Assembly: GCA_964614945.1 (NCBI GenBank)
Contig: CAZTNW010000003.1
Coordinates: 72,838-136,837 of the forward strand
Source of the DNA: an uncultured bacterium
GTDB lineage: Bacteria; Caldisericota; JANLFM01
Length of the DNA stretch: 64,000 nucleotides
Reading direction: 5' to 3'
Numbering within the stretch: position 1 is the first letter of the stretch; each line of letters begins with the position of its first letter. Below the pieces are notes generated by a model that ran no database searches, was not told where the DNA came from, and saw only the letters and a list, made by a program, of their open reading frames with translations. Of this stretch, positions 16,086 through 32,868 are shown piece by piece. A program made the position numbers and the translations under genes.

Positions 16086-16189
16086 GCCCTTTTTCCTTTC
16101 TGCTGTCCCATCACAATGTTGTGCTGAGCATAAGCGCTGCGGCTGACTCAGGTCGAAGCGGTTTCACCTCATTCCTGTTCTTGCCCTGC

Positions 16190-16921
16190 TCACTCGCTGC
16201 CCTCATCTCCTTCATGCGGTAAGGTTGAGTCTAAAGGCATTTCGCTGGCTCTCAATTTAGACTCATCGTCGGCGGAGAAGATTCCGCACGACCGCTCGAG
16301 CATCTCCAGGCGCTTCCTTAGTTCTTCCTGCTCTTTCATGAGATAACTCATAGCTTCGGCTACAGGGTCGGGGAGCCTTCCATGCTCAAGGTCCATAAAG
16401 TGCTTGCGTTTATCTTCTACGATTCTTCCTGGAACTCCGACCACTGTGGCTGCAGGGGGGACCGATTTCAGGACCACAGAACAGGCTCCGATTTTAGCAT
16501 CGTCTCCAATGGTAACGGCACCCAGGACAACTGCCCCGGCGCCAATGACTACATTGTTGCCAATCGTGGGGTGGCGTTTTCCTTTTCTCAAGCTTGTTCC
16601 TCCCAGGACAGCGCCCTGATAAATCAGGACATCATCTCCAATCTCGGTAGTCTCCCCGATAACTACGCCAGCTCCGTGGTCGATGAAGAAACGCCTCCCG
16701 ATTTTTGCCCCGGGATGAATTTCAATGCCAGTAAAAAAGCGAGCTAAATGAGAGATAAAGCGCGCCAGAAAAAACAACTTCTTCTGCCAGAGAAAGTGGG
16801 CCAGACGATGGAACCAGAGGGCGTGAACTCCCGGATAACACATTAAAATCTCCAGGGTGCCTCTGGCAGCAGGGTCTCTGGCGAATACTGTCTGGATGTC
16901 TTCTTTCAGAGTTTTAAGCAT
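16190..16921 (-). CDS. cysE: serine O-acetyltransferase with C-terminal extension
   Basis: 243 aa; left-handed beta-helix hexapeptide repeats ([39 protein letters not shown]). Confidence 0.85.
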
Positions 16922-17107
16922 ATATGTTCTCCGTGTGGGAATTCCTCTCTCTTAACCAATCTGAGCTTCAAAGGTCTTGAAAAAGCCAAGTGGAGAGATA
17001 GCGCTCACCTGTATCAGGAAGGATAGCCGTAATAAGTTTCCCCGTGTTTTCTGGCCTTCGGGCTACCTCTAAGGCCGCCCAGACCGCAGCTCCTGAAGAT
17101 ATTCCAG

Positions 17108-17959
17108 CTAATATTCCTTCTTCTCTGGCCAACCTCCTGGCCATGAGTCCGGCGTCGTCGTTGGCGACCCTGATAACTTCATCGAGCAGACCACCTCCAG
17201 CACCTCGGGAATAAAACCGGCCCCAATTCCCTGAATCCTGTGTGTGCCTGGCTTCCCTCCGGAGAGGACGGGGGAACTTTCAGGCTCGACAGCGATGGCT
17301 TTGAATCCCTTTTTCCTCTCTTTCAAAACCTCCGCCGCTCCAGTAATCGTACCTCCAGTTCCCACCCCCGCCACTAAAATATCCACCTTTCCCTCGGTAT
17401 CCCTCCATATCTCCTCAGCAGTAGTCAACCTGTGAATTTCAGGGTTGGCAGGATTCTTAAACTGCTGAAGCAGGAGAGAGTCAGGATTCTCGGCCGCCAG
17501 TTGCTCTGCTTTCCTCACTGCTCCAGATATCCCTTCCAGTCCGGGAGTCAGAACCAGCTCCGCTCCGAACATCGAAAGGAGCTGTCTTCTCTCGAGGGAC
17601 ATCGTGTCAGGCATGGTCAGGATGAGCCTGTATCCTCTGGCAGCGCAGACAGAAGCCAGGGCGATACCTGTATTCCCGCTCGTGGGTTCGACAAGAACCG
17701 TATTTTTATTGATCAACCCTCTTTCTTCGGCATCGGCGATCATGGAAACCCCAATCCTGTCTTTGCCGCTGCCAGTAGGATTGAATGCCTCCAACTTGGC
17801 CACAACAGTTGCCCGCAGCCCCTCTGTTATCCTGTTTAACCTGACGAGCGGAGTGTTCCCTATCAATTCCGCCACATCTCTGGCAATACCCCTGGCTAAC
17901 CTCGGTATGCTCAGGGCTTTATAATGAAGGATGTCCAATTCTTTAGCTTTCTCTCTCAT
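17108..17959 (-). CDS. cysK: cysteine synthase (CysK/CysM, PLP-dependent), interrupted by an apparent frameshift; homologous 3' end continues in another frame to 16968
   Basis: [27 protein letters not shown] motifs; after IPEVLE the ORF frame gives a non-homologous tail, while another frame reads [46 protein letters not shown]... to a stop at 16968-16970. Confidence 0.8.
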
Positions 17960-17985
17960 TTAAACCCTCCTTATGAGCTATCCCT

Positions 17986-18849
17986 TCACAATATGTCACT
18001 TAAGAAAATCCCCCTCCTTTCAATCTTCCCTTTATCCTCGTCAGTTATCGTAGCGCCTCTCTCCCTGTGACGAGCTGACCCTCCGGATGTGCATTCCTTT
18101 ATGAATTTTTCTACTCCCGAGATGCCTGTTTTCTCGTAGAGGTGAATAATATGGCTCCCCACGACAGCGATGTCGGCCAGTCCTTCCAGCTGTCGAACCT
18201 GCACCGCGGAGGATATGCCAAAACCAGCGGCAACTGGCAGCTTGGACCTCTCTCGGATTTCTTTTATAAAATTAATCCCCTCTTCACCTATTCTTTTGAC
18301 TTCACCGGTAATTCCTACCCTTAAGGTAATGTAGATGAAACCCTTTGATATGCGCAAAATTTCCCCGAGCCTTCCTTTCTTAGGGCCGGGAGAAACAACA
18401 TTGATCGGATAAATTCCCACCCGGCGAGCATAGTCGAAATATCCCTCGACCCTTTCGTCGAAGGTCAAATCGGGAATGATGAGCCCGCTGAGGCCGGAGT
18501 CCCTAGACCTCCTCACGAATTTCTCAAGGCCCATCTGGAAAGGAATATTGGCGTAAGTCATGAAGAGGAGAGGAATATTAATCCTCTTTTTCAAACGTTC
18601 GGCAAGCTGAAAACATTGGCAGGGAGTGATACCATGGTCGAGAGCTATCTGGTTAGCTGCCATGATAGTCCGGCCGTCTGCCAGAGGATCGGAAAAAGGG
18701 ATCTGAATCTCGATAAGGTCGACTCCGTACTCTGCCATTGCCAGGGCAATCTCGCCGGATTTTTCGAGGTCTGGATATCCGGCCACAATATGAGTCATGA
18801 GTTTCAATTCCTTCTTCCCGGAGAAAATATGGTCGATAGGATTATCCAC
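17986..18849 (-). CDS. trpA: tryptophan synthase alpha subunit
   Basis: 287 aa; conserved EIQIPFSDPLADGRTI block; follows trpB with overlap. Confidence 0.9.
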   Translation of the reverse strand: MDNPIDHIFSGKKELKLMTHIVAGYPDLEKSGEIALAMAEYGVDLIEIQIPFSDPLADGRTIMAANQIALDHGITPCQCFQLAERLKKRINIPLLFMTYANIPFQMGLEKFVRRSRDSGLSGLIIPDLTFDERVEGYFDYARRVGIYPINVVSPGPKKGRLGEILRISKGFIYITLRVGITGEVKRIGEEGINFIKEIRERSKLPVAAGFGISSAVQVRQLEGLADIAVVGSHIIHLYEKTGISGVEKFIKECTSGGSARHRERGATITDEDKGKIERRGIFLSDIL

Positions 18850-20074
18850 TTTCCGCCTCTTCCCTTAAGAACCGCGCCCAGTTCTCGCGGTCGATCTTCT
18901 TTGCTGTAATAAAAATGTCCTTATCACCCCTCCCGGAGATATTAACGACAATGAGGGTGTCCGGGCCATACTCCCTCGCTTTCCTAAGGGCCCAGGAAAG
19001 TGCGTGTGCGGATTCCAGGGCAGGAATGATCCCTTCCAGGCGGGCCAGCGTCCTGTAGCCGACCATGGCTTCTTCGTCGCTGACTTTTTCAAACATGATG
19101 GTGCCTGCGTCATGAAGGAAGGCAAGCTCAGGCCCGATCCCCGGATAATCCAGGCCAGCGCTTATGGAGTGTGTTGGAGCAAGCTGTCCGTATCTGTCCT
19201 GGATAAAATAGGATTTATAGCCCTGAGCTATTCCGGCCCGGCCGTGCTTGCTGAATCGCAGGGCGTTTTCGCCAAAACCGTTACCTTTCCCTCCCGCTTC
19301 GACAGCTACAAACTGGATGCGCTTTTCCCTCAGAAAGGGATAAAAAAACCCCATGGCATTTGACCCTCCTCCGCAGCAGGCGATCATTACATCGGGGAGC
19401 CTGCCCTCGATTTCGAGCATCTGTTTTTTCACTTCTTTTCCGATGATGGATTGAAAATCTCGCACAATAACCGGGTAGGGATGAGGACCGACAACCGAGC
19501 CCAGGAGGTAATGGGTGTCCCTGAGATTTTCAATCCAGTGCTTCAAAGCCATATTAACTGCATCCTTGAGGGTTTTTGCTCCCTCCTTAACAGGGACGAC
19601 ATCCGCCCCCAGGAGCCTCATAGAGAAGACATTGGGATGCTGCCTTTTCATGTCGACCTCTCCCATGAAAATGGTACATCCGAGGCCAAACTTGGCACAG
19701 ACAGAGGCTGTGGCCAGCCCGTGTTGACCCGCTCCGGTCTCGGCGACAATTTTCTTTTTGCCCATTTTCCTGGCCAGGAGGGCCTGGCCGATGACATTAT
19801 TTATCTTATGCGCTCCGGTATGGGCGAGGCCCTCCAGCTTTAAATAAATCCTGCCTCCTTTATTCGCCGAAGTCAGGTTCTCGGCAAAATAAAGCGGAGT
19901 AGGCCTTCCGCAGTAGTTCCGGAGAAGAAAAGCAAGTTCTTTTTTGAAAGCTCTTTCTTTCTTACAGAAAAAATAAGCCTCCTCTAGTTCATCAAGGGCG
20001 GGGATGAGCATTTCGGGTACGAAGCGGCCTCCGAAGTCGCCGAAATATCTGCAGAATTTTTTAACCTTTTCCAT
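18842..20074 (-). CDS. trpB: tryptophan synthase beta subunit
   Basis: 410 aa; PLP-enzyme motifs (LEGLAHTGAHKINN, GAGQHG, CCGGGSNAMG). Confidence 0.95.
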   Translation of the reverse strand: MEKVKKFCRYFGDFGGRFVPEMLIPALDELEEAYFFCKKERAFKKELAFLLRNYCGRPTPLYFAENLTSANKGGRIYLKLEGLAHTGAHKINNVIGQALLARKMGKKKIVAETGAGQHGLATASVCAKFGLGCTIFMGEVDMKRQHPNVFSMRLLGADVVPVKEGAKTLKDAVNMALKHWIENLRDTHYLLGSVVGPHPYPVIVRDFQSIIGKEVKKQMLEIEGRLPDVMIACCGGGSNAMGFFYPFLREKRIQFVAVEAGGKGNGFGENALRFSKHGRAGIAQGYKSYFIQDRYGQLAPTHSISAGLDYPGIGPELAFLHDAGTIMFEKVSDEEAMVGYRTLARLEGIIPALESAHALSWALRKAREYGPDTLIVVNISGRGDKDIFITAKKIDRENWARFLREEAESG

Positions 20075-20693
20075 TTTCCCCTCTTATTCTTCTGATAATG
20101 GAAAAAAACCTGGTCATCTTCTCAATGCTTTTTTTTCTGGCATGCTCTTCCAGAAAACTTGAAGCGTCAACTCCATATGGTCTCAGGCAGGCAACTTCTT
20201 CAACATTTTCAGAGCTTAGGCCTCCGGCGATGATGATCCGGAATTCTCTCCTGACGGCCTCTTGGGCGATTGCCCAGTCGAAGGGCACAGAGGTTCCGCC
20301 TTGCTTACCTTCTACATATGTATCGAGGAGAAATGTCTCACAGTCGTAGGAATTCATTTGCTCAAGTGATTCCTGGCTCCTGACCCGGATAACTTTCCAG
20401 AAAGGCAGGCCGAGTTTCCGGCAGTAATCCGGCGATTCATCGCCATGAAGCTGGACGATATCGAGCCCGGTCTCATAATATATCCTTCTAATGCCTTCTC
20501 GGGTTTCGTTAACAAAAACCCCGACCTTTTTTACAGGCAAAGAAAATTGTCTGGACAGATTTTTAACGAAAGGAGGGGAAACGTAACGTGGGGATAATCG
20601 GTAAAAGATAAAGCCTGCGAAATCAGCGCCAAATGAAGCGACGGCCAGGTAATCCTCGAGATTGGTGATCCCACAGATCTTCACTTTAAGCAT
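20061..20693 (-). CDS. trpF: phosphoribosylanthranilate isomerase
   Basis: 210 aa; KICGIT N-terminus, VQLHGDE block. Confidence 0.85.
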   Translation of the reverse strand: MLKVKICGITNLEDYLAVASFGADFAGFIFYRLSPRYVSPPFVKNLSRQFSLPVKKVGVFVNETREGIRRIYYETGLDIVQLHGDESPDYCRKLGLPFWKVIRVRSQESLEQMNSYDCETFLLDTYVEGKQGGTSVPFDWAIAQEAVRREFRIIIAGGLSSENVEEVACLRPYGVDASSFLEEHARKKSIEKMTRFFSIIRRIRGENGKG

Positions 20694-21456
20694 TCATCAG
20701 CTCTTCCAATTTTTCCCCGGGAGATAAGGAAGCGCAGAGGGCTTCGCCGACCAGGACACCTGAAAACCCGGCATCTTTCAGCTCCCGAATATGAGACGGG
20801 GAATGAATTCCGGATTCACTGATGACTTTGATGGATTCCGGTATGAGCCTCTTCAAGTTGAACGATGTTTCCCTGTCAATCGCAAAAGTCTCCAGATCCC
20901 TGTTATTGATCCCTATGATCTTCGGATTGAGCTTCAGAGCACGGAAGAGCTCTTCTTCAGTATGAACCTCCATGATAACCTGCAGGTCAAGGTGCAAGGC
21001 CTCCATATAGAGCAGTTTCAGGTTTTCATCATCTAAGCAGGCCACAATGAGAAGAATGAAGTCAGCGCCGAGGTTGTAAGATTCATAAATCTGGTAAGGG
21101 TGAATGAGAAAATCCTTGCGCAGCACAGGAATTCTGATATTCCTTGCAATGGCTTTCAAATCCTCTTTCGAGCCAGAAAAGAAGTTCTTTTCCGTGAGGA
21201 CAGAGATCGCCCCTGCCCCCGCTCTCTCGTATAGTCTGGCCAGATCGAGAGCGTTAAGATCTTCTCGGATCATCCCTTTTGCGGGAGAGGCTTTTTTTAC
21301 TTCGGCGATGAAGAAAAAACCTGTCTCCATCAGTTGAAGGACATCGAGAGGCGGCTTCCTTTCCAGAAGATGGAATGAATCGGGGCGGAATGAATCAAAA
21401 TTCTCCCGCTCTTCGATTAAAATCCGGCTGGTGATCCGTTGCAGGATAACTTTCAT
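20686..21456 (-). CDS. trpC: indole-3-glycerol-phosphate synthase
   Basis: 256 aa; FIAEVKKASPAKG, LRKDF, IGINNRDL blocks. Confidence 0.9.
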   Translation of the reverse strand: MKVILQRITSRILIEERENFDSFRPDSFHLLERKPPLDVLQLMETGFFFIAEVKKASPAKGMIREDLNALDLARLYERAGAGAISVLTEKNFFSGSKEDLKAIARNIRIPVLRKDFLIHPYQIYESYNLGADFILLIVACLDDENLKLLYMEALHLDLQVIMEVHTEEELFRALKLNPKIIGINNRDLETFAIDRETSFNLKRLIPESIKVISESGIHSPSHIRELKDAGFSGVLVGEALCASLSPGEKLEELMNA

Positions 21457-23042
21457 GCGTTTGTAATCCTGATCAGTTCCTCAAGCTTTTTCATGGCGGC
21501 ACCTGAATCTATGGAGGTCTTGGCTTTGCTGATGGCCTCTTCCAGTGTTTGGGCCGCCTTGGCAAGATAGATGGCTGCAGCAGCATTGAGGACAACCACA
21601 TCCCTTCGGGGGCCTTTTTCTCCTCCGAGCACAGAGAGGACAATCTCACAGTTAGTCTTCAGGTCTCCTCCCCTCAGATCTTTTTTCTGGCAATAGGCGA
21701 AGCCGTAATTACGCGGGTCAAAAATCATATGCCGCATCCAGCCCTGGTTAATCTCGACAATCTTTGTCGACCCGTTGAGGGTGATTTCATCGAGGCCATC
21801 GCTTCCATGAACTACCATCGCTCTGGCTGTACCCAGCGATATGAGAGTTCTGGCGATTTTTTCCATGATGGAATCGTCAAACACGCCCATAATCTGGCAG
21901 TCGGCTCCGGCTGGATTGGTCAATGGCCCCAACATGTTGAAGATGGTCCTAATTCCCATTTCCACCCTCACGGGTACGGCATGTTTCATCGAGAGATGGA
22001 GTTTTGGAGCAAAGAGAAAGGCCAGACCTGCGAGCTGGAGGGCTTTCTCGAGAATTTCGGGACCAGGGGTGATATTGACACCGAGAGCTTCCATGAGGTC
22101 AGCGCTTCCACAGCGGGAAGTAATCGACCTGTTTCCGTGCTTTGCAACGCAGACGCCTGCTCCTGCAATAACAAAGGAGGCGCAGGTAGATATGTTAAAA
22201 GTTCCGCTCCCGTCGCCCCCTGTGCCGCAAGTATCGACAAGAATTTTTCCTTCCGGCTTCCTGACAGGGGTAGCCTTCCTCCTCATCACCCGGACAAAGC
22301 CTGTAATTTCGGAGACAGCTTCGCCCTTGATCGCCAGCGCTGTCAGAAAAGAGGCTATCTGGGCAGGAGTAGCAGACCCTGAGGTTATCTCGTTCATGAC
22401 TTTTTCCGCCTCGTCCTCGCTGAGGTCTATTCCGGCCGATACTTTCTTTATCGCTGATTGGATAATGCTTGGAAGAGGTTCCGGGCTCAGAAAGTTCATG
22501 AGGAGCTCAGTGCCATTCTCGGTCCCGATTGATTCCGGATGAAACTGTAGACCCTCGATAGTGTAAAGCTTATGCCGGATGCCCATGATTTCGTTGTCCT
22601 CTGTCCAGGCAGAAATCTCCAGTTCTTCGGGGAGGAAGGTTCGGTCGATGACGAGCGAGTGATAGCGAATTGCCGGAAAAGGACTCTTGATCCTGGCGAA
22701 TATCCCTTTCCCGTCATGGTAAATATCGGAGGATTTTCCGTGGTAAAGTGTGGACGCCTTCACGACTTTCGTTCCGAAAGCGACACCGATAGCCTGATGC
22801 CCCAAGCAAATCCCGAGAATCGGGACTTTTCCGGCAAACTTTCTGATGAGCTCGATGCAGATCCCCGCCTTTTCAGGTCTGCCCGGCCCGGGTGAAAGAA
22901 CGATATGGGAGGGTGCCAGCTCTTCTACCTGGGCGAGGTCGATGGCATCGTTCCGTTTGACCATAACCTCTTGCCCCGTTTTTCTGATCGTCTGATAGAT
23001 ATTGAAGGCGAAAGAATCATAGTTATCTATGAGAAGAATCAT
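21453..23042 (-). CDS. trpGD: fused anthranilate synthase component II (glutamine amidotransferase) / anthranilate phosphoribosyltransferase
   Basis: 529 aa; N-terminal GATase (ILGICLGHQAIG, catalytic Cys) and C-terminal TrpD (GTGGDGSGTFNISTCASFVIAGAG). Confidence 0.9.
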   Translation of the reverse strand: MILLIDNYDSFAFNIYQTIRKTGQEVMVKRNDAIDLAQVEELAPSHIVLSPGPGRPEKAGICIELIRKFAGKVPILGICLGHQAIGVAFGTKVVKASTLYHGKSSDIYHDGKGIFARIKSPFPAIRYHSLVIDRTFLPEELEISAWTEDNEIMGIRHKLYTIEGLQFHPESIGTENGTELLMNFLSPEPLPSIIQSAIKKVSAGIDLSEDEAEKVMNEITSGSATPAQIASFLTALAIKGEAVSEITGFVRVMRRKATPVRKPEGKILVDTCGTGGDGSGTFNISTCASFVIAGAGVCVAKHGNRSITSRCGSADLMEALGVNITPGPEILEKALQLAGLAFLFAPKLHLSMKHAVPVRVEMGIRTIFNMLGPLTNPAGADCQIMGVFDDSIMEKIARTLISLGTARAMVVHGSDGLDEITLNGSTKIVEINQGWMRHMIFDPRNYGFAYCQKKDLRGGDLKTNCEIVLSVLGGEKGPRRDVVVLNAAAAIYLAKAAQTLEEAISKAKTSIDSGAAMKKLEELIRITNA

Positions 23043-24510: not shown

Positions 24511-24511
24511 T

Positions 24512-25510
24512 TCATCCTCCTTCAGTTCTCCATTCCCATGTCCTCTGGATCAGAATAAGGTCGGCCAGGACGCAGGTAGTAGCTGCTTCGACGATGACGG
24601 GGGCGCGCAGGGCGAAACAGGAATCATGCCGGCCTTGGATGATCAGGTCCTCAACCACGCCGCTGCGAAGATTTACTGTCTTCTGAGGTTTGGGGATACT
24701 GGAGGTCGGCTTGACAGCGACCCGGAAAACGAGGGGGTTCCCGTTGGTCAGTCCTCCGTTGACTCCCCCTGAGTGGTTGGTCAGAGTCTCTCCCTTGACT
24801 TTGACAATCGGATCATTGTGAGTGCTTCCCTTCATCTTTGCCGAGGAAAACCCAGAGCCGAATTCTACACCCTTGATTCCGGGGATGGAGAAGACAAGAT
24901 GGCTAATCATCGATTCCGCGGAATCGAAGAAGGGTTCGCCAAGGCCAGAGGGCATGTTTGTTGAGATGCATTCAATAATCCCACCGATTGAGTCATTACT
25001 CTCCACGGCCTCCTTGGCTGCTCTGTCGATCTCGATCGTGCCCCCAGCCTCGATGAGTCGGGCGTTGACCCTGACGGGAAGGACAATTTTTCTGGCAATG
25101 ACGCCCGCCGCCACAAGAGCAACGGTCATCCGGCCTGAAAAATGTCCTCCTCCCCGATAGTCATTAAACCCGAAGAACTTTTTCGCTGCCGTGAGGTCGG
25201 CATGTCCTGGCCTGGGAAGGTAGCGGATATTTTCATAGTGTTCGCTTCTTGTATCTCTGTTCTCGAATGCAATATGAAGGGGAGCACCTGTGGTCTTGCC
25301 CTCAAAAACCCCACTGAGAAAGAGGGGGATATCCTTTTCCCTTCTTTGGGTAGTACCTGCAGCCCGTAAGCCCCTCCTTTCCAGGTCCTCCTGGAAATCA
25401 CCGCCTGTTAAGGGCAGGCCAGGAGGGCAACCATCGATCACGCATCCCACTCCCCAGCCATGGGATTCTCCATAAATAGAGACCCTGAATATTCTGCCAA
25501 AACTATTCAT
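24512..25510 (-). CDS. aroC: chorismate synthase
   Basis: 332 aa; FGESHG-type N-terminus (YGESHGWGVGCVIDGCPPGL), RPGHAD, GGGHFSGR motifs. Confidence 0.85.
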   Translation of the reverse strand: MNSFGRIFRVSIYGESHGWGVGCVIDGCPPGLPLTGGDFQEDLERRGLRAAGTTQRREKDIPLFLSGVFEGKTTGAPLHIAFENRDTRSEHYENIRYLPRPGHADLTAAKKFFGFNDYRGGGHFSGRMTVALVAAGVIARKIVLPVRVNARLIEAGGTIEIDRAAKEAVESNDSIGGIIECISTNMPSGLGEPFFDSAESMISHLVFSIPGIKGVEFGSGFSSAKMKGSTHNDPIVKVKGETLTNHSGGVNGGLTNGNPLVFRVAVKPTSSIPKPQKTVNLRSGVVEDLIIQGRHDSCFALRAPVIVEAATTCVLADLILIQRTWEWRTEGG

Positions 25511-26768: not shown

Positions 26769-28026
26769 CCTCCTTTATACTTCTCTCTGAAGAGATAATG
26801 AGGTCAGCCGCAAGGAAATATTTATCCTTCCTCTCCTGAAAAATTCTTTCCGCTTGTGCCTTCAGGGCATTCTCCTTGAGAAGCGGCCTCTCTTTACCCC
26901 CTTTTAATCTCCTGCTGGACTCCTCCCATCTAGCGAAGAGCCAGATAATGAAAGAGTTTTTCCTCAGAACCCTCCGGTTTCCCTCATCAAGAACGGCTCC
27001 CCCACCGCAGGCGATAACCATATTTTCCTTGTCCTCCAAGCGAGAAATGACCTCCTTTTCTTTCTCCCTGAAATATGGCTCACCTCTCAGGCGGAAGATG
27101 TTACCGACCGTCATTCCCTCCTCCCTCTCGATCTCACTGTCTGTATCCAGAAAAGAGAATCCGAGTTTCGCGGCGAGCACCTCACCCACAGAGGTCTTAC
27201 CGCAGCCCATGAAGCCAATCAGGCTGACATTTCTTCTGACACCTCTCGAAGCGCAACGATCAAGAGGAAAGGGATGCCATTGATTGTCCTCAGGTTTAAT
27301 TCCTGTAAAAATCTCGAAGCTCCGGCAGGCCTGGCTCAGCAACCATTCTTCCCCAGGGATAAATGAAACGCTTTCTTTAGGGCAGATACCTTCCAGAGCT
27401 GAGGGATTATAGACTGCATCAAAAAATATACACTTGTTTCCCGGCGGAAGATCTTTCCAATATGTCTTGATTTCTCGAATCGTGTTAACAACGATGAAAG
27501 TATCCTTCAAATGAACATTCAGGTTGTCCAGGCCTGAGGCCAGGCAACCAATCCGGTAACCGTAATCCCTGGCTTTTTTCACGTTTCTATTCAGGATGAC
27601 GACATTGGCTCCCATATTTCGAAGAGCAAGAGCAGCGGCCTTACCAGCTCCTCCTGCCCCAAGGACGAGGCCTTTTCTGGCGGTCAGATCGAGGCCCCTG
27701 TTGATAAGAGGCCGGGAGACACCATCGAGGTCTGTGTTGAAGCCTTTCTTCCTTCCCTCTTTAAAGATGATCGTATTCACGCTGCCCGTCTTCTCCACCT
27801 GGTCGTCCCATTCCTCTATGAAGGGAAAAACAGATTCCTTAAAAGGAGAAGTAATATTAAACCCCTCGAGGCCAAGGTATTCAGCCAGAAAGAATAATTC
27901 CTCAGGGTTCTCCGGTCCTATTCGAGTATAGTGGGCATCGATGGAGTGGGCTTTGAAAAGCTCCTTGAAGATGAAAGGGCTCTTACTGGGAAGAATAGGG
28001 CTGCCGGCGACAGCAAAGAGTCTCAT
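26728..28026 (-). CDS. aroEK: fused shikimate dehydrogenase / shikimate kinase
   Basis: 432 aa; N-terminal AroE (NITSPFKE, GAGGAGKAAA Rossmann) and C-terminal P-loop kinase (LIGFMGCGKTSVG). Confidence 0.85.
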   Translation of the reverse strand: MRLFAVAGSPILPSKSPFIFKELFKAHSIDAHYTRIGPENPEELFFLAEYLGLEGFNITSPFKESVFPFIEEWDDQVEKTGSVNTIIFKEGRKKGFNTDLDGVSRPLINRGLDLTARKGLVLGAGGAGKAAALALRNMGANVVILNRNVKKARDYGYRIGCLASGLDNLNVHLKDTFIVVNTIREIKTYWKDLPPGNKCIFFDAVYNPSALEGICPKESVSFIPGEEWLLSQACRSFEIFTGIKPEDNQWHPFPLDRCASRGVRRNVSLIGFMGCGKTSVGEVLAAKLGFSFLDTDSEIEREEGMTVGNIFRLRGEPYFREKEKEVISRLEDKENMVIACGGGAVLDEGNRRVLRKNSFIIWLFARWEESSRRLKGGKERPLLKENALKAQAERIFQERKDKYFLAADLIISSERSIKEVARKAYEEVTQLL

Positions 28027-28679
28027 TCCAGCACCCTGCTTAAGCGAGAAACAAGAACCTGCATCCTCTTAAAAGCCAGCTGGCCTTCAGCAGTTTTTTC
28101 AGACTCCTCCAGGCAAGCATAGGTAAAAGGAGCTCCAAAAAAAGGAGCCACAATCCTCGTCAGAGAGGCTTTAGTCCCAGTTCCCAGGGCAATAATCCTC
28201 CCCCGGAAGTTTTCGAATTCCCCGTAGAGGGAGAGAATCCTCAGCATGTCTCTGACAGAAAGGCAGTTACAGGCAATTTTGCAGAGATCCGCTCCCTCGC
28301 TAAAACATTGCCTGACGATTCTTCTCAGCCGCGTGCCGGGGGGAGTTCCTGACTCATCATGATAGGACATAATCACCCGGCATCCTCTATCCCTGGCCAT
28401 CTTCAGGATCTCCTTCCTCGAGGACGCCGGCGAATCGACCTCAAGGTCCACATAGCCGGCCCCGGAACGGATCGCTTCCTTTAAGAGCAGAATCCTTTCG
28501 GTCTCGTGGAATAAGCCGGGTCGGCAAGTGGCTATAAGATTTGCCCGCGAAGAGAAGATCCGGGCAACTTCTTTTTTATTCAACTTGCACAGGTCGATCC
28601 GGACTTCCGCCAGGTCCACTTCTTTGAGGATCGCTGACAGCCGCTGAAGGTCTTTAATCGCCAGGCTTATGCAGATCAT
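28023..28679 (-). CDS. aroD: type I 3-dehydroquinate dehydratase
   Basis: 218 aa; TIM-barrel DHQase blocks (EVRIDL, GYVDLEVD, KIACN). Confidence 0.8.
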   Translation of the reverse strand: MICISLAIKDLQRLSAILKEVDLAEVRIDLCKLNKKEVARIFSSRANLIATCRPGLFHETERILLLKEAIRSGAGYVDLEVDSPASSRKEILKMARDRGCRVIMSYHDESGTPPGTRLRRIVRQCFSEGADLCKIACNCLSVRDMLRILSLYGEFENFRGRIIALGTGTKASLTRIVAPFFGAPFTYACLEESEKTAEGQLAFKRMQVLVSRLSRVLE

Positions 28680-29670
28680 CCATCACCTCAATAAGTTCAT
28701 CAAACGCAATATTTTCAATAGAAGCCTCCCCGATTGATTTCAGGAGGACGAAATCGATCGTCTCTCCTTTCTTCTTCTTATCTTTCCTGATGGATTCAAG
28801 AATCGCGCTCTTCGGAAAACGCAAGGAGACGGGAAGACGGTATTTAACAAGGAGAGACCGCAAGCGTTCGCGATCCGTTCTATCCATGAGCTTTTTCCTG
28901 ACCGAAAGATCTGCGGCCATCATCATACCCACAGCAACAGCCTCGCCGTGACTGAGCCCGTAATTCTTCTCAAAGGCGTGGGCGAAGCTGTGGCCGAAAT
29001 TAAGCTTTCTTCTTTCCTCTCTTTCTCTCTCGTCGCTTTCTACAATCGAAATTTTAATTTTGACAGTGTCCATGATGATTTTCTCGACGACCTTTCTTTC
29101 CAGGCTCAGGGCCAGCCGGTTGTTTTCTTCAAGGAACTGGAAAAGCCCTGCATCAGCGATTGCGGCGGTTTTGACGACCTCGGCAAATCCGCAGGATCTC
29201 TCTTTCGCGTCAAGCGTCGGGAGAAAAGAAGGGTTGATAAAGACAAAATCCGGCTGATTGAAAACTCCCACCATATTTTTATATCCCCTGAAGTTCACTC
29301 CGTTTTTCCCTCCAATGGCAGCATCCACTTGGGCAAGGAGCGTAGTCGGCACAAAAGCAAAATCCACCCCCCTCATGTAGGTCGAGGCAGCAAAGCCGGC
29401 GATATCACAGACCACGCCGCCGCCAATAGCAAGGATAAAAGACGACCTGTCGACACCCCCGGTTAGAAGCTTTTGATATATCGCCCTTACTGTTAGCAGT
29501 GTTTTAGCCTTTTCTCCGATGCCTATGACGATTTTTTGGCGGCAAAGAGGGAAAAAAACCTCATAAAGCCGGTTTACATTCTCATCAGTAATGAGGACGG
29601 TCCTCTCGCTGTCGATATGCTGCGCAACTTCTTCGAATGGACAGTTAAACAGGACGAGTGTCTTGATCAA
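28654..29670 (-). CDS. aroB: 3-dehydroquinate synthase
   Basis: 338 aa; [44 protein letters not shown] block. Confidence 0.9.
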
Positions 29671-30551
29671 TCTCTCATCTGCCCTTTCATAAAGTCTCTT
29701 AGAGCCGTTATTTTTTTAGCCGCGGCAGCAAACATCACAGGAGGCATAGCCTGTTCCCGGTCGCTTAAAGCCTCTTCGGGCTTGTAATGGACCTCTATGA
29801 TCAGGCCATCTGTTCCCGCTGCTACAGCAGCAAGGCTCATGGGTTCGATAAGACTCAGACGGCCTGTCCCATGAGAAGGATCAACAATCACGGGGAGATG
29901 GCTGATTTCCTTGACAGCTGGAATCATGCTCAAATCCAGGGTGTTTCGCGTATAAGTTTCAAAGGTGCGAATTCCCCTTTCACAGAGGATGACATTCCGA
30001 TTCCCCTCGGCCAGAATGTATTCAGCGCAATTCAGCCACTCTTCAAGAGTGGAATACATGCCCCTTTTGAGCAGAACGGGCTTGCCAATTTTTCCCACTT
30101 CTTTTAAAAGCGAATAATTCTGCATGTTTCGGGCGCCAACCTGGAGAATATCAGCGTACTCACACACCCATCCGGCATCCCGCGTGTCGACGACCTCGGT
30201 AACTACAGGAAGTCCAGTTTCCTCTCGTGCTTTAGCCAGGATTTTTAAGCCCTTAATGCCCAGTCCCTGGAATGAATAAGGAGAGGTTCGAGGTTTGAAT
30301 GCTCCACCGCGAAGCATGTTTGCCCCGGATTCTTTGACCTTCTGAGCGGTAATGATCGTCTGCTTCTCACTCTCCACGCTGCAGGGACCGGCAATAAGCA
30401 CGAAGTCGTCTCCAACCCTTATCCCTCGGACATCGATGATTGTCCTTTCTTTTTGAACGAGAAATGAATAAAGCTCTCGGCTCTCCGGTGAAGTCATCGT
30501 TTTTTGGTCAGATAAGCTTTTGTCTCCAGCAGAACTTCCTGTTAATAACAT
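29667..30551 (-). CDS. aroF: 3-deoxy-7-phosphoheptulonate (DAHP) synthase, class I-beta (KDO8P-synthase-like)
   Basis: 294 aa; [33 protein letters not shown] blocks; GGAGAGGAGG RBS upstream of ATG. Confidence 0.85.
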
Positions 30552-30736
30552 GATGATCGCCTCCTCTCCGCAATTGAGAATGAGATGAACAGGTAAGGGT
30601 TATTAAAAATGTGGTTATTCTAAAAAGGTAGGATTAAAGACTAATCGGGCGGGTTAGACCGCCCAATAAAAGTAAAAGGAAGGGGTCGCCTCAATTTGCT
30701 TCCGCTTGAGCAATTTGTTCTCTCTAAGCATGTGCC

Positions 30737-30766
30737 AATATAACGCAATCATTTTTTAAATGTCAA
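30737..30766 (-). promoter_or_regulatory. candidate sigma70-type promoter of the aro-trp-cys block
   Basis: On minus strand TTGACA (plus 30761-30766), 17-18 nt spacer, TTATAT/TATATT; about 180-nt leader to the DAHP synthase ATG. Confidence 0.4.
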
Positions 30767-30966
30767 GCGAACGAAATACTTGATAAAACTAGAAAAAAAT
30801 GTTTTTATGACAAGGAAATGGAAAAATTCATCCATTCAACAATAAATTCTGCCTTCTCCCATTATTTTTACTATTATGGGCCTCTGGCCCAGTAGAAGCG
30901 TCCTCTCCTTTCAAATCCTTTAAATATAAACCCCATCCTGAGTTTCACAAAAGAGGTGAGCATGGA

Positions 30967-32034
30967 ATGAAACTTGAACAGCTCCGAAAAAAAATCGATC
31001 AGATTGATTACGAGATCCTTCATCTGTTGAGAGAGAGGATGGAGCTCGGCCTTCGAGCTAATAAATTCAAAAAGACAACCCAGGACAAAGCCAGGGAACA
31101 ACAAGTGCTGAGGCGATTGGAAAAGCATTGTCGCCTTCTTCATCTGATTCCAAGCAGCTTCGCGTTGAAACTATTCGGGGAGATTATAAGGGAGAATCGC
31201 AGATTACAGGAACAAAAAAAGATCTTGATCGGGTTTCAGGGGAAGCATGGGGCCTTCGCTGAAGTCGCTGCCAAATACTACGACCCGCACTTGGTGACGA
31301 TCCCCTGTCAGGAATTTGCCGATGTGTGTGTCGGGGTGCAAGAGGGCTATCTGGATCTGGGCATTGTTCCTGTGGAGAACTCGTTGGGAGGACCTGTGGT
31401 CCAGGTAAATGAACAGCTGATAAAAACCGACTTGAAGGTCGTAGCCGCGGTTAAACTGCGGATCAATCATTGTCTCCTCGCTTTGCCTGAAACTAATTTC
31501 AGGGAAATAAGGGTTGTCTATTCTCATCCCCAAGCGCTCTCCCAGTGCCGCTCATTTTTGGAACAGTACCATCTGGAAACCCATCCCTATTACGACATCG
31601 CAGGAGCAGCAATAATGCTCAAGAAAGCAGAATTAAAAGCGGCTGCCGTTATTGCCAACCACCTCTGCGGAGAACTCTATAATCTGAAAATCATCAAGAA
31701 AAATATCGAGGATGACCCCTCCAATTTCACAAGATTTTTCATTCTGGGGAAGGGAGAGAACAGGATCGAGGCCGACAGGTGCTCGATCGTCTTTTCAATA
31801 CCTCACAGGGCGGGAGCATTATTCTCAATCTTCGAGATATTCGCCAGGGCCGATGTCAACCTGACAAGGGTCGAGTCCTTCCCAGAGCGGGGCGACCCGG
31901 ACTCCCATATCTTCCTCCTGGATTTCCAGAGTGAAGCGAAGCCAGATCAGCTCTGCAAGGTTCTTGAAGAGGTCAGAGCGAAAACAAAGACCTTGAAATA
32001 TCTTGGGCGTTACAGGGAAGAGCTATTCCCATGA
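30967..32034 (+). CDS. pheA: bifunctional chorismate mutase / prephenate dehydratase
   Basis: 355 aa; N-terminal chorismate mutase helix (LRKKIDQIDYEILHLLRERMEL), PDT domain, C-terminal ACT domain. Confidence 0.9.
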   Translation: MKLEQLRKKIDQIDYEILHLLRERMELGLRANKFKKTTQDKAREQQVLRRLEKHCRLLHLIPSSFALKLFGEIIRENRRLQEQKKILIGFQGKHGAFAEVAAKYYDPHLVTIPCQEFADVCVGVQEGYLDLGIVPVENSLGGPVVQVNEQLIKTDLKVVAAVKLRINHCLLALPETNFREIRVVYSHPQALSQCRSFLEQYHLETHPYYDIAGAAIMLKKAELKAAAVIANHLCGELYNLKIIKKNIEDDPSNFTRFFILGKGENRIEADRCSIVFSIPHRAGALFSIFEIFARADVNLTRVESFPERGDPDSHIFLLDFQSEAKPDQLCKVLEEVRAKTKTLKYLGRYREELFP

Positions 32035-32810
32035 AGATAGCAATTTTAGGGGCCGGTCATATGGGATCATGGCTTGCCGAAGTGCTGGCGGAAAGGAACA
32101 ACAGGATTGGCATCCATGATCTGGATCTTTCCAAGGTAGAGAAAATCCAGAAGGCCACCGCAATTCTCAGGTCATATGAAGAACTTAAGAAGTTTCAGCC
32201 TGAAATCCTTATCAATGCGGTAAGCCTGCAGAATACTCTCAAGGCCTATAAATCGGCTGAGCCCTATCTTACTTCTGGATGCCTGATAGCTGATGTGGCC
32301 TCGGTAAAATCGGGAATAGTCGGATACTACAGAAGATCCAGATTCCCTTTCGCTTCCGTTCACCCCATGTTTGGCCCGACATTTGCCAATGTGGAAAAAT
32401 TAGAGGATGAAAATGTGATCCTCATCAGTGAGTCTGATAGAGAAGGGATCAGGTTCTTTCGCGAATTATTCGCAGGGATGAGGTTGAATATCTTCGAATA
32501 TTCATTTGAGGAGCACGACCGGATGATCGCCTATTCACTTGTCCTTCCCTTCGCCTCAACCATGGTTTTTGCTACCTGCATGAATAATTCTGCCGTTCCC
32601 GGCAGTACCTTCAAAAAACACAGGGATATCGCGAAAGGCCTTCTCTCCGAGGATGATTATCTTCTGGCAGAAATACTTTTCAGCCCTTATTCTCTCCAAC
32701 AACTGGAACAGGTGACCCGTCGCCTGGAATTTCTCAAACATGTGATAAAGGCCAAGGACATCGAGGAAGCCCGGAAATTCTTCAGTTGCTTAAGAGAGAA
32801 TGTTCTCTAA
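32031..32810 (+). CDS. tyrA: prephenate dehydrogenase
   Basis: 259 aa; N-terminal Rossmann IAILGAGHMGSW, DVASVK block; overlaps pheA stop. Confidence 0.8.
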   Translation: MKIAILGAGHMGSWLAEVLAERNNRIGIHDLDLSKVEKIQKATAILRSYEELKKFQPEILINAVSLQNTLKAYKSAEPYLTSGCLIADVASVKSGIVGYYRRSRFPFASVHPMFGPTFANVEKLEDENVILISESDREGIRFFRELFAGMRLNIFEYSFEEHDRMIAYSLVLPFASTMVFATCMNNSAVPGSTFKKHRDIAKGLLSEDDYLLAEILFSPYSLQQLEQVTRRLEFLKHVIKAKDIEEARKFFSCLRENVL

Positions 32811-32868
32811 AAGAACATCCTGATTTCTATCTGAGTGAATCTGTGAGGTTCGCTCAGAATTAAGCGCT

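What the first reader, a model, noticed from the sequence alone, without database searches (positions are those of the whole stretch)
16190..32810. Collinear aromatic amino acid supraoperon ending in cysK-cysE
Fourteen co-directional, mostly overlapping genes follow biosynthetic order: DAHP synthase, aroB, aroD, aroE-aroK fusion, aroA, aroC, then trpE, trpG-trpD fusion, trpC, trpF, trpB, trpA, then cysK and cysE. pheA-tyrA are transcribed divergently from the same intergenic region. Including cysteine-synthesis genes after trpA is unusual. The leader (30552-30736) shows no T-box core that I could recognise.
Basis: partly seen in the sequence, partly recalled or inferred. Interest (0 to 1): 0.45.

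Follow-up and report, generated by a model that had tools for sequence, protein, structure and literature searches.

The report
Leader-peptide-controlled aromatic amino acid supraoperon
A real 14.5-kb gene block runs from the first shikimate step to tryptophan and is very probably switched on by ribosomes stalling in a tiny upstream reading frame rich in Phe, Tyr and Trp codons; this is a known kind of control in an unusual form, and the two cysteine genes at its end are a deletion remnant.

Summary
Fourteen co-directional genes on the minus strand (30551 to 16190) encode DAHP synthase, AroB, AroD, AroE-AroK, AroA, AroC, TrpE, TrpG-TrpD, TrpC, TrpF, TrpB, TrpA, CysK and CysE. All eleven junctions from DAHPS to trpA overlap or leave 1 nt. 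pheA-tyrA diverge from the same intergenic region.

- The leader holds no T-box. It holds a promoter followed 5 nt later by a 25-codon ORF, MLRENKLLKRKQIEATPSFYFYWAV*, whose end forms a GC hairpin across the stop codon.
- A second such ORF (…HYFYYYGPLAQ*) precedes pheA. Both are conserved in relatives. Aromatic-rich leader ORFs precede the same aro block in Syntrophorhabdus and Aminicenantes genomes, and in Syntrophorhabdus they carry a textbook terminator/antiterminator.
- cysK-cysE are not an adaptive addition. Relatives have trpA, then a separate promoter, a Cys/Met-codon leader ORF and a cystathionine-lyase-like gene, then cysK-cysE. The window has lost that segment, and its cysK carries a 1-nt frameshift.

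How the hairpin turns the operon off is unresolved: it has no U-tract. I favour Rho-type attenuation blocked by a ribosome parked on the aromatic codons. This is a new variant of a known kind and of moderate interest.

The parts
30737..30766 (-). Promoter of the aro-trp supraoperon: -35 TTGACA (30766-30761), 18-nt spacer, -10 TATATT (30742-30737)
   Evidence: This is the best sigma-70 match in 15400-33000, at 11 of 12 positions. The distance from TTGACA to the leader ATG is 35-37 nt in 8 related loci.
30654..30731 (-). Aro-side leader ORF MLRENKLLKRKQIEATPSFYFYWAV*. Its ATG lies 5 nt after the -10 box with no Shine-Dalgarno sequence, so it is inferred to be leaderless
   Evidence: Seen directly in the sequence. 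Homologous ORFs with the same aromatic run are present in L002, L003, L006, L008, L098, L100, L101, L102 and L104.
30644..30667 (-). Hairpin spanning the leader stop codon. The core is GGGCGG-UCUAAC-CCGCCC, and the stem extends into the last Tyr codon. The stop codon UAA sits in the loop
   Evidence: It is the top terminator-like hit, with dG about -15.7 kcal/mol. The GC core is invariant in nine relatives and altered by a bulge in L104. The 10-nt tail has only 5 U.
30572..30643 (-). G-depleted spacer (rut-like) containing the C-rich box and U-run CCUACCUUUUU
   Evidence: G content is 9% against a window mean of 25.7% and a 1st percentile of 11.4%. The C-box plus U-run recurs in relatives and in Aminicenantes-type leaders.
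30560..30569 (-). Shine-Dalgarno sequence GGAGAGGAGG of the DAHPS gene
29667..30551 (-). DAHP synthase, type I-beta, catalytic domain only with no N-terminal regulatory domain
   Evidence: PF00793. NF006421 matches profile positions 62-336 of 338 only.
28654..29670 (-). aroB, 3-dehydroquinate synthase
28023..28679 (-). aroD, type I dehydroquinase
26728..28026 (-). aroE-aroK fusion (shikimate dehydrogenase and shikimate kinase)
25503..26768 (-). aroA, EPSP synthase
24512..25510 (-). aroC, chorismate synthase
23023..24510 (-). trpE. It starts 1 nt after the aroC stop, which leaves no room for a trp-specific leader
21453..23042 (-). trpG-trpD fusion
20686..21456 (-). trpC
20061..20693 (-). trpF
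18842..20074 (-). trpB
17986..18849 (-). trpA with a roughly 30-aa non-homologous C-terminal tail, interpreted as a deletion scar
16968..17959 (-). cysK pseudogene with a 1-nt deletion at 17190/17191. The translated ORF ends at 17108
   Evidence: The truncated product is present on 6 contigs of the public collection.
16190..16921 (-). cysE, serine O-acetyltransferase, intact
   Evidence: TIGR01172, 247.6 bits against a cutoff of 210.65
30780..30808 (+). Promoter of the pheA-tyrA operon: -35 TTGATA (30780-30785), 17-nt spacer, -10 TTTTAT (30803-30808). It lies back-to-back with the aro promoter
   Evidence: The equivalent TTGACA-17-TTTTAT arrangement is present in relatives.
30818..30895 (+). 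pheA-side leader ORF MEKFIHSTINSAFSHYFYYYGPLAQ*. Its ATG lies 9 nt after the -10 box
   Evidence: It is conserved in L002, L003, L006, L008, L100 and L101.
30878..30890 (+). Hairpin GGGCC-UCU-GGCCC at the end of the pheA-side leader ORF
   Evidence: In L101 it is replaced by a different hairpin sequence, CAGGCGGC...GCCGCCUG.
30967..32034 (+). pheA (chorismate mutase, prephenate dehydratase and ACT domains)
32031..32810 (+). tyrA-family dehydrogenase, with weak family matches

Best explanation
**Transcription unit.** Positions 30766 to 16190 on the minus strand form one transcription unit, an aromatic supraoperon. A single strong promoter fires a transcript whose first codons, with essentially no 5' UTR, encode a 25-residue leader peptide ending in Phe-Tyr-Phe-Tyr-Trp-Ala-Val. 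The DAHP synthase has no allosteric domain, and no intergenic space exists before trpE. Expression of the whole pathway from DAHP to tryptophan is therefore set at this leader.

**ON state.** When charged tRNA-Phe, -Tyr or -Trp is scarce, the ribosome stalls on the aromatic codons. These codons are themselves the lower 5' arm of a GC-rich hairpin that spans the stop codon. The parked ribosome prevents the hairpin from forming and covers the pyrimidine-rich tract, and transcription proceeds into the operon.

**OFF state.** When the amino acids are plentiful, the ribosome finishes and leaves. The hairpin forms between two G-poor, C/U-rich tracts, and transcription is ended prematurely. The most likely agent is Rho loading on these tracts, because no U-tract follows the hairpin.

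**Divergent operon.** pheA-tyrA has its own leader of the same design, with Tyr and Phe codons only.

**cysK-cysE.** These genes are a remnant of a neighbouring, separately attenuated sulfur-amino-acid operon. A deletion joined them to trpA, and cysK has since been inactivated.

**Status of each step.**
- Shown: the genes, the junctions, the leader ORFs and their conservation, the hairpin, and the deletion.
- Inferred: leaderless translation, stalling as the signal, and Rho as the effector.
For: **Genes and tight packing.**

**Promoter and hairpin.** They are the best promoter-like and the best terminator-like sites of the region.

**Conservation of the leader ORF.**
- The leader ORF with an aromatic run is conserved in ten loci of the clade. 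The rest of the peptide and the synonymous codons vary: FYFYW, SYIYW, LYFYW, FYYYW, ILFYW, FFFFYYFW, FCFYFW, FFFYFW.
- The ATG lies 35-37 nt after the start of TTGACA in the 8 loci measured.
- 20 of 24 DAHPS-led loci carry an ATG-initiated ORF of 10-60 codons with at least 4 aromatic residues in 6, against 4% in shuffles. 14 of 24 have at least 5 in 6, against 0.3%.

**Distant relatives.** Syntrophorhabdus leaders carry a canonical terminator (GGCCAUGGGUG...CACCCAUGGCC followed by U7) and an antiterminator (GCUACACCC complementary to GGGUGUAGC). The sensor is therefore part of a bona fide attenuator family.

**Match between codons and operon content.**
- Every aro-side leader of the window clade has a Trp codon (ten loci). 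So do the five Syntrophorhabdus- or Syntrophus-type leaders, four of which have trp genes visible in the fetched operon.
- All seven pheA-side leaders, and the Aminicenantes leaders of operons without trp genes (L015, L017, L020, L025), lack a Trp codon.
- The same lineage uses a Cys/Met-codon leader (..CMIMCSPSTG*) ahead of its cys operon.

**Evidence for a Rho-type output.**
- The hairpin flanks hold 0-12% G, against a window mean of 25.7%.
- The 10-nt tails of 17 such hairpins hold only 2-5 U.
- None of about 20 gene ends in the window shows a hairpin plus U-run terminator.

**Deletion and pseudogene.**

**Precedents.**
- The C. glutamicum aroR leader (Phe-Tyr-Phe) lies ahead of the DAHPS gene aroF (PMC11802643, PMC7356990).
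- Deinococcus deserti has leaderless leader peptides (PMC4007540).
Against: - No transcript data exist. The TSS, and so leaderless translation, is inferred from promoter spacing alone.
- No mutually exclusive antiterminator structure was found in the window clade.
- The hairpin core is invariant in nine of the ten clade loci, so there is no covariation inside the clade.
- A Rho site is suggested by base composition only. C is just about 25% of the tracts, and nothing in the window shows that the organism has Rho.
- A stalled ribosome leaves the downstream G-poor tract exposed, so blocking Rho requires the upstream tract to be essential for loading.
- The Trp codon is also part of the hairpin (UGG-GCG-G), so its presence may be structural.
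- L021 has a Trp codon in its leader but no trp gene in the 870 nt available downstream.
Confidence: 0.6

Rival explanations
1. The leader-peptide sensor is the same, but the stop-codon hairpin is itself a factor-independent or NusA/NusG-assisted terminator with a degenerate U-tract. A ribosome stalled on the aromatic codons simply occludes its 5' arm.
For: - The hairpin is the top terminator-like site in the region, and in the window its tail has 5 U in 10.
- The hairpin is stable, at -10 to -20 kcal/mol.
- Stalling on codons that form the lower stem must disrupt it, which follows directly from the sequence.
Against: - The tails of the relatives have only 2-5 U in 10 and are A-rich.
- The U content is not conserved, whereas the sequence GAUAAGUCU is.
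- A non-stalled ribosome reading to a stop inside or just after the hairpin would also occlude it, unless translation lags far behind transcription.
- The window shows no use of hairpin plus U-run terminators at gene ends.
Confidence: 0.2
2. Translational attenuation. The pyrimidine-rich regulatory-codon tract pairs with the purine-rich Shine-Dalgarno region of the DAHPS gene. A stalled ribosome frees the SD, and polarity then spreads the effect down the operon.
For: - In L003 and L008 there is a perfect 12-bp duplex, UCCUCCUUUUAU with AUAAAAGGAGGA, at -16.9 kcal/mol, which is better than 98-99% of shuffles.
- One paper describes C. glutamicum aroR as a translational regulatory leader peptide (PMC7356990).
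Against: - In the window the best ORF-SD duplex is no better than shuffles: -13.6 kcal/mol against a mean of -15.0.
- It is also not significant in L002, L006 and L100.
- Modelled SD accessibility does not rise consistently when a ribosome is placed on the aromatic codons in 7 leaders.
Confidence: 0.12
3. The small ORFs are not functional sensors. The two back-to-back promoters are controlled by a DNA-binding repressor, and the hairpins are incidental.
For: - In relatives the two -35 boxes form an inverted repeat, TGTCAAG-N4/5-CTTGACA, that could serve as an operator.
- Protein repressors of aro genes (TyrR, TrpR) are well known; this rests on general knowledge.
Against: - Aromatic-codon ORFs are enriched far above chance.
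- They are conserved as codon identity rather than as sequence.
- They occur with unrelated promoter contexts in distant lineages, and with a classical terminator in Syntrophorhabdus.
- In the window the inverted repeat is spread apart by 13 bp.
Confidence: 0.05
4. The block is not one unit. The trp genes or cysK-cysE have their own internal promoters, and cysK-cysE are a functional, selected addition linked to tryptophan synthesis through serine.
For: - A 10-of-12 promoter-like match lies at 24425-24396.
- A good SD, AAGGAGGG, precedes cysK.
- cysE is intact.
- cysK-cysE follow trpA on the same strand in two relatives.
Against: - The promoter-like site lies inside trpE, downstream of its start.
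- Promoter-like matches in the region are near the chance level: 19 found against 14.1 +/- 3.5 expected.
- Eleven junctions overlap or leave 1 nt.
- Relatives separate trpA from cysK by a promoter, a leader ORF and another gene.
- cysK is frameshifted in all six contigs that carry it.
Confidence: 0.1

Closest known systems
Corynebacterium glutamicum aroR leader ahead of aroF (DAHP synthase); Neshat et al. 2014, as summarised in PMC11802643 and PMC7356990
   Same: A short leader ORF with a Phe-Tyr-Phe run lies directly upstream of the DAHPS gene. Expression rises when ribosomes stall on aromatic codons.
   Different: Here the leader governs the whole pathway to tryptophan (12 further enzymes plus cys remnants) and includes a Trp codon. 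It is paired with a second divergent leader for pheA-tyrA. It ends in a stop-codon-spanning hairpin with no U-tract. The organism is unrelated; by ClpB similarity it is probably Caldisericota-like.
Escherichia coli trpL and pheL attenuators (Yanofsky model; general knowledge, summarised in PMC11802643)
   Same: A leader peptide carries codons for the end product, and ribosome position decides whether transcription continues.
   Different: The E. coli leaders have a Shine-Dalgarno sequence, four pairing segments, and a terminator with a U-tract. The window leader has no SD, a single conserved hairpin, no antiterminator partner and no U-tract. The Syntrophorhabdus relatives of this operon do fit the E. 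coli scheme.
Bacillus subtilis aromatic supraoperon, and the Desulfovibrio vulgaris aroA'-aroB'-pheA-aroF-tyrA-[trp operon] cluster with a putative attenuator (PMC1173090)
   Same: The trp operon is joined co-directionally to common-pathway aro genes, so one region serves several aromatic branches.
   Different: The Bacillus version contains only some aro genes, has hisC-tyrA-aroE downstream, and uses TRAP. No TRAP-type triplet array is present here. The window has all seven common-pathway steps in pathway order followed directly by trpE. Syntrophorhabdus has an even fuller version with pheA-tyrA between aroC and trpE.
Leaderless leader peptides of Deinococcus deserti (PMC4007540)
   Same: The start codon of the leader peptide lies at or next to the transcription start, and the ORFs sit ahead of amino-acid biosynthesis or tRNA synthetase genes.
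   Different: In D. deserti the start sites were mapped by RNA-seq. Here the leaderless state is inferred from the fixed 35-37 nt distance from the -35 box to the ATG.
Escherichia coli tnaC-tnaA and phage lambda tR1 (general knowledge)
   Same: These illustrate the proposed output. In tna, a ribosome parked on a leader ORF hides a Rho loading site. In tR1, a hairpin sits between two rut halves.
   Different: tna is catabolic and senses free tryptophan at the stop codon, not tRNA charging. Rho dependence here is only inferred from composition.

Membership tests
Ribosome-mediated (leader-peptide) attenuator | Short ORF between the promoter and the first structural gene | tested here: met
   The ORF at 30731-30654 lies between the promoter (30766-30737) and the DAHPS start at 30551.
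Ribosome-mediated (leader-peptide) attenuator | Cluster of codons for the amino acids made by the operon, conserved as codon identity in relatives | tested here: met
   The run is FYFYW. Ten clade loci and about 14 distant loci carry aromatic runs. 20 of 24 loci meet the criterion against 4% expected.
Ribosome-mediated (leader-peptide) attenuator | Mutually exclusive terminator and antiterminator structures, with the terminator followed by a U-tract | tested here: not met
   Only one conserved hairpin was found, with no alternative partner, and its tails have 2-5 U in 10. The Syntrophorhabdus homologues do meet this feature by inspection.
Ribosome-mediated (leader-peptide) attenuator | Expression responds to the supply of charged tRNA | not testable with these tools
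   This needs starvation experiments or reporter fusions.
Leaderless mRNA | Transcription start at or within a few nt of the start codon, and no Shine-Dalgarno sequence | tested here: inconclusive
   The ATG lies 5-7 nt after the -10 box in 8 clade loci and 6-11 nt after it in distant ones, with no SD. No 5'-end data exist.
T-box riboswitch | Match to the T-box covariance model (specifier loop, T-box sequence, terminator/antiterminator) | tested here: not met
   There is no Rfam hit at gathering score in the whole window. There is none at E<=10 in 30450-31050.
TRAP-regulated trp leader (Bacillus type) | Nine to eleven (G/U)AG triplets spaced by 2-3 nt | tested here: not met
   The leader has nine irregularly scattered triplets, and there is no intergenic space before trpE.
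Rho-dependent leader attenuator | C-rich, G-poor unstructured tract next to the leader ORF | tested here: inconclusive
   G is 0-12% in both flanks, against 25.7% background, but C is only about 25%.
Rho-dependent leader attenuator | Termination requires Rho | not testable with these tools
   This needs a Rho inhibitor, Rho depletion or in vitro transcription. No rho gene can be checked within 64 kb.
Aromatic (aro/trp) supraoperon | Common-pathway aro genes and the trp operon are co-directional and contiguous, with no intervening terminator or divergent gene | tested here: met
   Junctions run from -41 to +1 nt. The same order occurs in L002, L003, L006, L008, L102 and L104.
Aromatic (aro/trp) supraoperon | A single transcript spans the block | not testable with these tools
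   No transcript data are available.

The most novel reading that the evidence does not exclude
The window clade, and the Aminicenantes-type leaders, use a distinct class of amino-acid attenuator. It consists of a leaderless leader peptide whose regulatory codons are themselves part of a Rho loading site and of a stop-codon-spanning hairpin. A ribosome stalled by tRNA shortage switches the operon on by hiding that site, and no intrinsic terminator or antiterminator is involved. The same design would serve aromatic operons in several uncultured phyla. The Cys/Met leader of the relatives shares the leaderless sensor but has extra pairing segments.
Probability: 0.3. Interest if true: 0.6.

Novelty: new variant of a known kind. 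Interest (0 to 1): 0.42.

Why it matters
- One promoter and one 25-codon sensor appear to set expression of the entire route from DAHP to tryptophan. The organism's first enzyme lacks an allosteric domain, so this is a compact example of whole-pathway control by tRNA charging.
- The same sensor occurs with a textbook terminator in Syntrophorhabdus and without one in this clade and in Aminicenantes. That gives a natural series for asking how attenuators change their output mechanism.
- It extends leaderless leader peptides beyond Actinobacteria and Deinococcus.
- For annotation, it shows that the cysK-cysE "inclusion" is genome decay rather than metabolic design.

Tried and rejected
- **T-box, riboswitch or any Rfam family in the leader.** None was found at gathering score or at E<=10. 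Nothing was found in the trpA-cysK interval of relatives either.
- **TRAP-type triplet array.** Absent.
- **Classical four-segment attenuator in the window.** Single-sequence folds and RNAalifold on 8 leaders give only the hairpin. A 5' helix also appears, but it is present in relatives and not in the window. The fold of the whole leader is no more stable than shuffles (z = -0.5).
- **Anti-SD pairing.** Significant only in L003 and L008. Modelled SD accessibility shows no consistent change on stalling.
- **Canonical intrinsic terminator.** The tails are U-poor.
- **cysK frameshift as an assembly error.** Rejected for two reasons. The truncated product is found on six contigs, the same number as DAHPS. 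The deletion is not in a homopolymer run.
- **Taxonomy from record titles.** The label "uncultured Eubacteriales" is attached to loci with Aminicenantes-type operons and is not informative. Cluster look-up gave no names. ClpB points tentatively to Caldiserica-labelled MAGs, at 76% identity against a plateau of about 68% from many phyla.
- **Other leaderless leader ORFs in the window.** A scan found only the two described here, plus two with no evident amino-acid codon run.

Full report
**1. What is in the sequence**

The minus strand from 30551 to 16190 carries fourteen consecutive ORFs. Pfam and NCBIfam identify them as follows:

| Gene product | Coordinates |
|---|---|
| Type I-beta DAHP synthase | 29667-30551 |
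| 3-dehydroquinate synthase (AroB) | 28654-29670 |
| Type I dehydroquinase (AroD) | 28023-28679 |
| Shikimate dehydrogenase-shikimate kinase fusion (AroE-AroK) | 26728-28026 |
| EPSP synthase (AroA) | 25503-26768 |
| Chorismate synthase (AroC) | 24512-25510 |
| TrpE | 23023-24510 |
| TrpG-TrpD fusion | 21453-23042 |
| TrpC | 20686-21456 |
| TrpF | 20061-20693 |
| TrpB | 18842-20074 |
| TrpA | 17986-18849 |
| CysK | 17108-17959 |
| CysE | 16190-16921 |

On the plus strand, pheA (chorismate mutase, prephenate dehydratase and ACT domains; 30967-32034) and a TyrA-family gene (32031-32810) diverge from the same 415-bp intergenic region.

- The eleven junctions from DAHPS to trpA range from a 41-nt overlap to a 1-nt gap. 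trpA to cysK is 26 nt and cysK to cysE is 46 nt.
- The aro half is in exact pathway order. The trp half is in the usual operon order.
- The DAHP synthase matches only the catalytic part of its family model (profile positions 62-336 of 338). It therefore lacks the N-terminal regulatory domain found in relatives such as the Thermotoga enzyme; that comparison rests on general knowledge.
- trpE starts one base after the aroC stop, so there is no room for a separate trp control region.

**2. The arrangement is conserved and widespread**

- Contigs encoding DAHPS proteins 72-89% identical to the window's keep the order DAHPS-aroB-aroD-aroEK-aroA-aroC-trpE-trpGD-trpC-trpF-trpB. Most also have pheA-tyrA divergent upstream.
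- A scan of one genome per species with an AroE-AroK alignment found only one close species representative, L008. It also found many distant genomes (AroEK 31-38% identical) with the same DAHPS-aroB-aroD-aroEK-aroA-aroC core.
- Syntrophorhabdus continues that core with pheA-tyrA-trpE-trpG-trpD-trpC-trpF-trpB, all co-directional. Aminicenantes continue it with pheA-tyrA.
- The window clade is therefore a variant in which pheA-tyrA point the other way and trp follows aroC directly.
- Aro/trp supraoperons as a class are already described for Bacillus, and for Desulfovibrio with a putative attenuator (PMC1173090).
Its ClpB is 76% identical to proteins of MAGs labelled Caldiserica, against about 68% for many other phyla. 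That is only a tentative placement.

**3. The leader**

Rfam finds nothing in the window except a tRNA-Ala at 34220-34294. It finds nothing in 30450-31050 even at E<=10.

Reading the minus strand shows the following:
- The best promoter match of the region is TTGACA, 18 nt, TATATT at 30766-30737, matching 11 of 12 positions.
- Five bases later comes an ATG with no Shine-Dalgarno sequence. It opens the ORF MLRENKLLKRKQIEATPSFYFYWAV* (30731-30654).
- The last codons, UAU UGG GCG GUC UAA, together with the next bases CCCGCCCGAU, form a hairpin whose loop holds the stop codon (30667-30644). This is the best terminator-like site of the region.

On the other strand, a second promoter (TTGATA, 17 nt, TTTTAT at 30780-30808) is followed nine bases later by MEKFIHSTINSAFSHYFYYYGPLAQ* (30818-30895). 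Its end forms GGGCC-UCU-GGCCC.

**4. Are the small ORFs real?**

In ten loci of the clade the aro-side ORF is present with the same layout. The peptide upstream of the run differs freely, while the run stays aromatic with changing order and synonymous codons: FYFYW, SYIYW, LYFYW, FYYYW, ILFYW, FFFFYYFW, FCFYFW, FFFYFW. The ATG is always 35-37 nt from the start of the -35 box.

The pheA-side ORF is conserved in six relatives. In L101 its hairpin has a different sequence but the same position.

Aromatic leader ORFs also precede DAHPS in distant genomes:
- Syntrophorhabdus: MDKSDTHRPISSLDYFGYWYIYAMLHPCPL*
- A Syntrophus MAG: ..FNFYYWYFYG..
- Aminicenantes: ..SYSYLFYFGR* and ..FYTYFYFWA*

Across 24 loci, 20 have an ATG-initiated ORF of 10-60 codons with at least four aromatic residues in six, against 4% in shuffled sequence. 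Fourteen have at least five in six, against 0.3%. The loci are related, so these are not independent trials, but at least five unrelated leader sequences are involved.

In Syntrophorhabdus the ORF is followed by a canonical terminator (a 10-11 bp GC stem and seven or more U). The ORF also contains a segment complementary to the terminator's 5' arm. That is a classical attenuator.

Codon content tracks operon content:
- Every aro-side leader of the window clade contains a Trp codon, as do the Syntrophorhabdus- and Syntrophus-type leaders, four of which show trp genes in the fetched operon.
- The seven pheA-side leaders do not, and neither do the Aminicenantes leaders of operons without trp genes.
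- One exception or unknown remains: L021.

Downstream of trpA, relatives also carry a promoter and a leader ORF ending ..CMIMCSPSTG* ahead of a sulfur amino-acid operon. This lineage therefore uses the device repeatedly.

**5. How the output works**

This part is inferred. The immediate effect of a ribosome stalled on the aromatic codons is clear from the sequence. Those codons are the lower 5' arm of the hairpin, and the Trp codon begins its GC core, so the hairpin cannot form. Hairpin formation must therefore correspond to the off state.

(a) *Intrinsic terminator.* The hairpins are stable (-10 to -20 kcal/mol). However, the ten bases after them hold only 2-5 U in 17 leaders and are A-rich. 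In addition, about twenty gene ends in the window show no hairpin plus U-run terminators.

(b) *Release of the DAHPS ribosome-binding site.* A perfect 12-bp duplex between the regulatory codons and the SD region exists in L003 and L008. It is not better than chance in the window or in four other leaders. Modelled SD accessibility does not rise consistently when a ribosome is placed on the aromatic codons.

(c) *Rho-type termination.*
- The 32 nt before the hairpin contain 0-12% G, and the 59-79 nt after it contain 6-12% G. The window mean is 25.7% and its first percentile is 11.4%.
- A C-rich box followed by a U-run lies 15-30 nt after the hairpin in the window (CCUACCUUUUU), in several relatives and in the Aminicenantes leaders. 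It has no G-rich partner anywhere nearby.

I favour (c). When the leader ORF has been read and vacated, Rho loads on the two pyrimidine-rich tracts held together by the hairpin, and it ends transcription near the U-run. A ribosome parked on the upstream tract prevents this.

My rough weights:

| Mechanism | Weight |
|---|---|
| Rho-type termination | 0.35 |
| Hairpin-directed termination without Rho | 0.2 |
| Translational control | 0.12 |
| Something else | remainder |

The sensor itself (leader peptide, stalling) I put at about 0.75.

No alternative pairing partner was found for either hairpin arm. A 5' helix joins codons 3-6 to the tract just before the aromatic run in most relatives and in the Aminicenantes leaders. 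In the window it is replaced by a local hairpin. It may pause the polymerase or limit translation to one round, but this is speculation.

**6. The cysteine genes**

Two metagenomic relatives, L088 and L090 (TrpA 79% and 69% identical), have the following after trpA:
- a 265-650 bp non-coding stretch with its own TTGACA promoter;
- the Cys/Met leader ORF and a multi-stem RNA;
- a 399-residue Cys/Met-metabolism PLP enzyme, cystathionine-lyase-like by its sequence (not scanned against the family libraries);
- an intact 330-residue CysK;
- CysE.

In the window, homology to the relatives stops at TrpA residue 257. About 30 unrelated codons follow. Homology resumes about 24 nt before the cysK start codon. 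A deletion of roughly 1.5-2 kb therefore joined cysK to trpA.

Compared with L088, the window's cysK also lacks one base between 17191 and 17190. That shifts the frame after residue 256. The truncated 283-residue product is recorded on six contigs of the public collection, the same number as the DAHPS protein. The frameshift is therefore real in this population. cysE is intact.

The "unusual inclusion" is thus a scar of gene loss. It is not evidence of a serine-based functional link, although cysE may now be co-transcribed with trpA.

**7. Comparison with what is known, and verdict**

The closest experimentally studied case is the C. glutamicum aroR leader (Phe-Tyr-Phe) ahead of the DAHPS gene aroF (PMC11802643, PMC7356990). 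Leaderless leader peptides have been mapped in Deinococcus deserti (PMC4007540). Full-text searches found no paper that links Syntrophorhabdus or Aminicenantes with leader-peptide attenuation, and none holding all four terms "leader peptide", Desulfovibrio, "aromatic amino acid" and attenuator.

- The supraoperon is a complete and tidy member of a known class.
- The twin divergent leaders are new members of a known class.
- Their stop-codon hairpin without a U-tract is a variant whose mechanism is open.
- Interest is moderate, at 0.42. It would be higher if the Rho-occlusion design were confirmed.

Noticed in passing
window 17190-17191 (minus strand): There is a 1-nt deletion in cysK relative to L088, in the sequence GGAGGTGG-TCTGC, which is not a homopolymer run. 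The C-terminal 70 residues continue in another frame to a stop at 16970-16968. The truncated product is present on six public contigs.
   Followed up: yes
window 17986-18080 (minus strand): TrpA carries a roughly 30-residue C-terminal tail, SGGSARHRERGATITDEDKGKIERRGIFLSDIL*, that has no counterpart in relatives. It appears to be the scar of the deletion that removed the neighbouring leader and the cystathionine-lyase-like gene.
   Followed up: partly
L088 4325-4579; L090 2554-2801: Downstream of trpA, relatives have a TTGACA promoter followed 37-38 nt later by a leader ORF, MSRKGLNHNHTEPAIYCMIMCSPSTG* or MIRGFIYLAQNATFCMIMCSPSTG*. The end of that ORF, CCCGAGCACAGGG, has both a nearby imperfect complement and a distant perfect 13-nt complement, CCCUGUGCUCGGG. 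This is a probable Cys/Met-sensing attenuator with no Rfam match.
   Followed up: partly
window 15483-16189: A 707-nt stretch between cysE and a response-regulator gene has no ORF of 80 aa or more on the minus strand, no Rfam match and no recognisable terminator.
   Followed up: no
L006 about 3340-3362; L008 about 7213-7235; window 30761-30785: In relatives the two divergent -35 boxes form a near-perfect inverted repeat, TGTCAAG-N4/5-CTTGACA, that could double as an operator for a dimeric regulator. In the window the two boxes are 13 bp apart.
   Followed up: no
window, about 20 gene ends (for example 32811-32868, 16100-16189): No gene end examined has a GC hairpin followed by a U-run. This suggests the organism makes little use of canonical intrinsic terminators.
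   Followed up: partly
window 30610-30625 (minus strand); L015, L021, L025, L101, L102, L104 leaders: A C-rich box followed by a U-run (CCUACCUUUUU, CACCCUUUUUUU, CCACCCAUUUUU and similar) recurs 15-30 nt after the stop-codon hairpin in unrelated leader families. It has no G-rich pairing partner and its role is unknown.
   Followed up: partly
L002-L008, L098-L101, L015-L022 leaders (5' ends): A helix joins the first few codons of the leader ORF (for example AGAGAAAAGG) to the pyrimidine tract just before the aromatic codons (CCUUUUCUCU). It occurs in most relatives and, with different sequences, in Aminicenantes leaders. The window has only a local 5' hairpin instead.
   Followed up: partly
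L020-L087 record titles: Several MAG records titled 'uncultured Eubacteriales' or 'Candidatus Micrarchaeota archaeon' carry the same bacterial aro operon and leader types as Aminicenantes records. Those taxonomic labels look unreliable.
   Followed up: no
window 34220-34294 (+): tRNA-Ala (UGC), the only Rfam or ARAGORN RNA gene detected in the region. It lies between dapA and an ORF (34506-35567) that precedes an amino-acid permease gene.
   Followed up: yes
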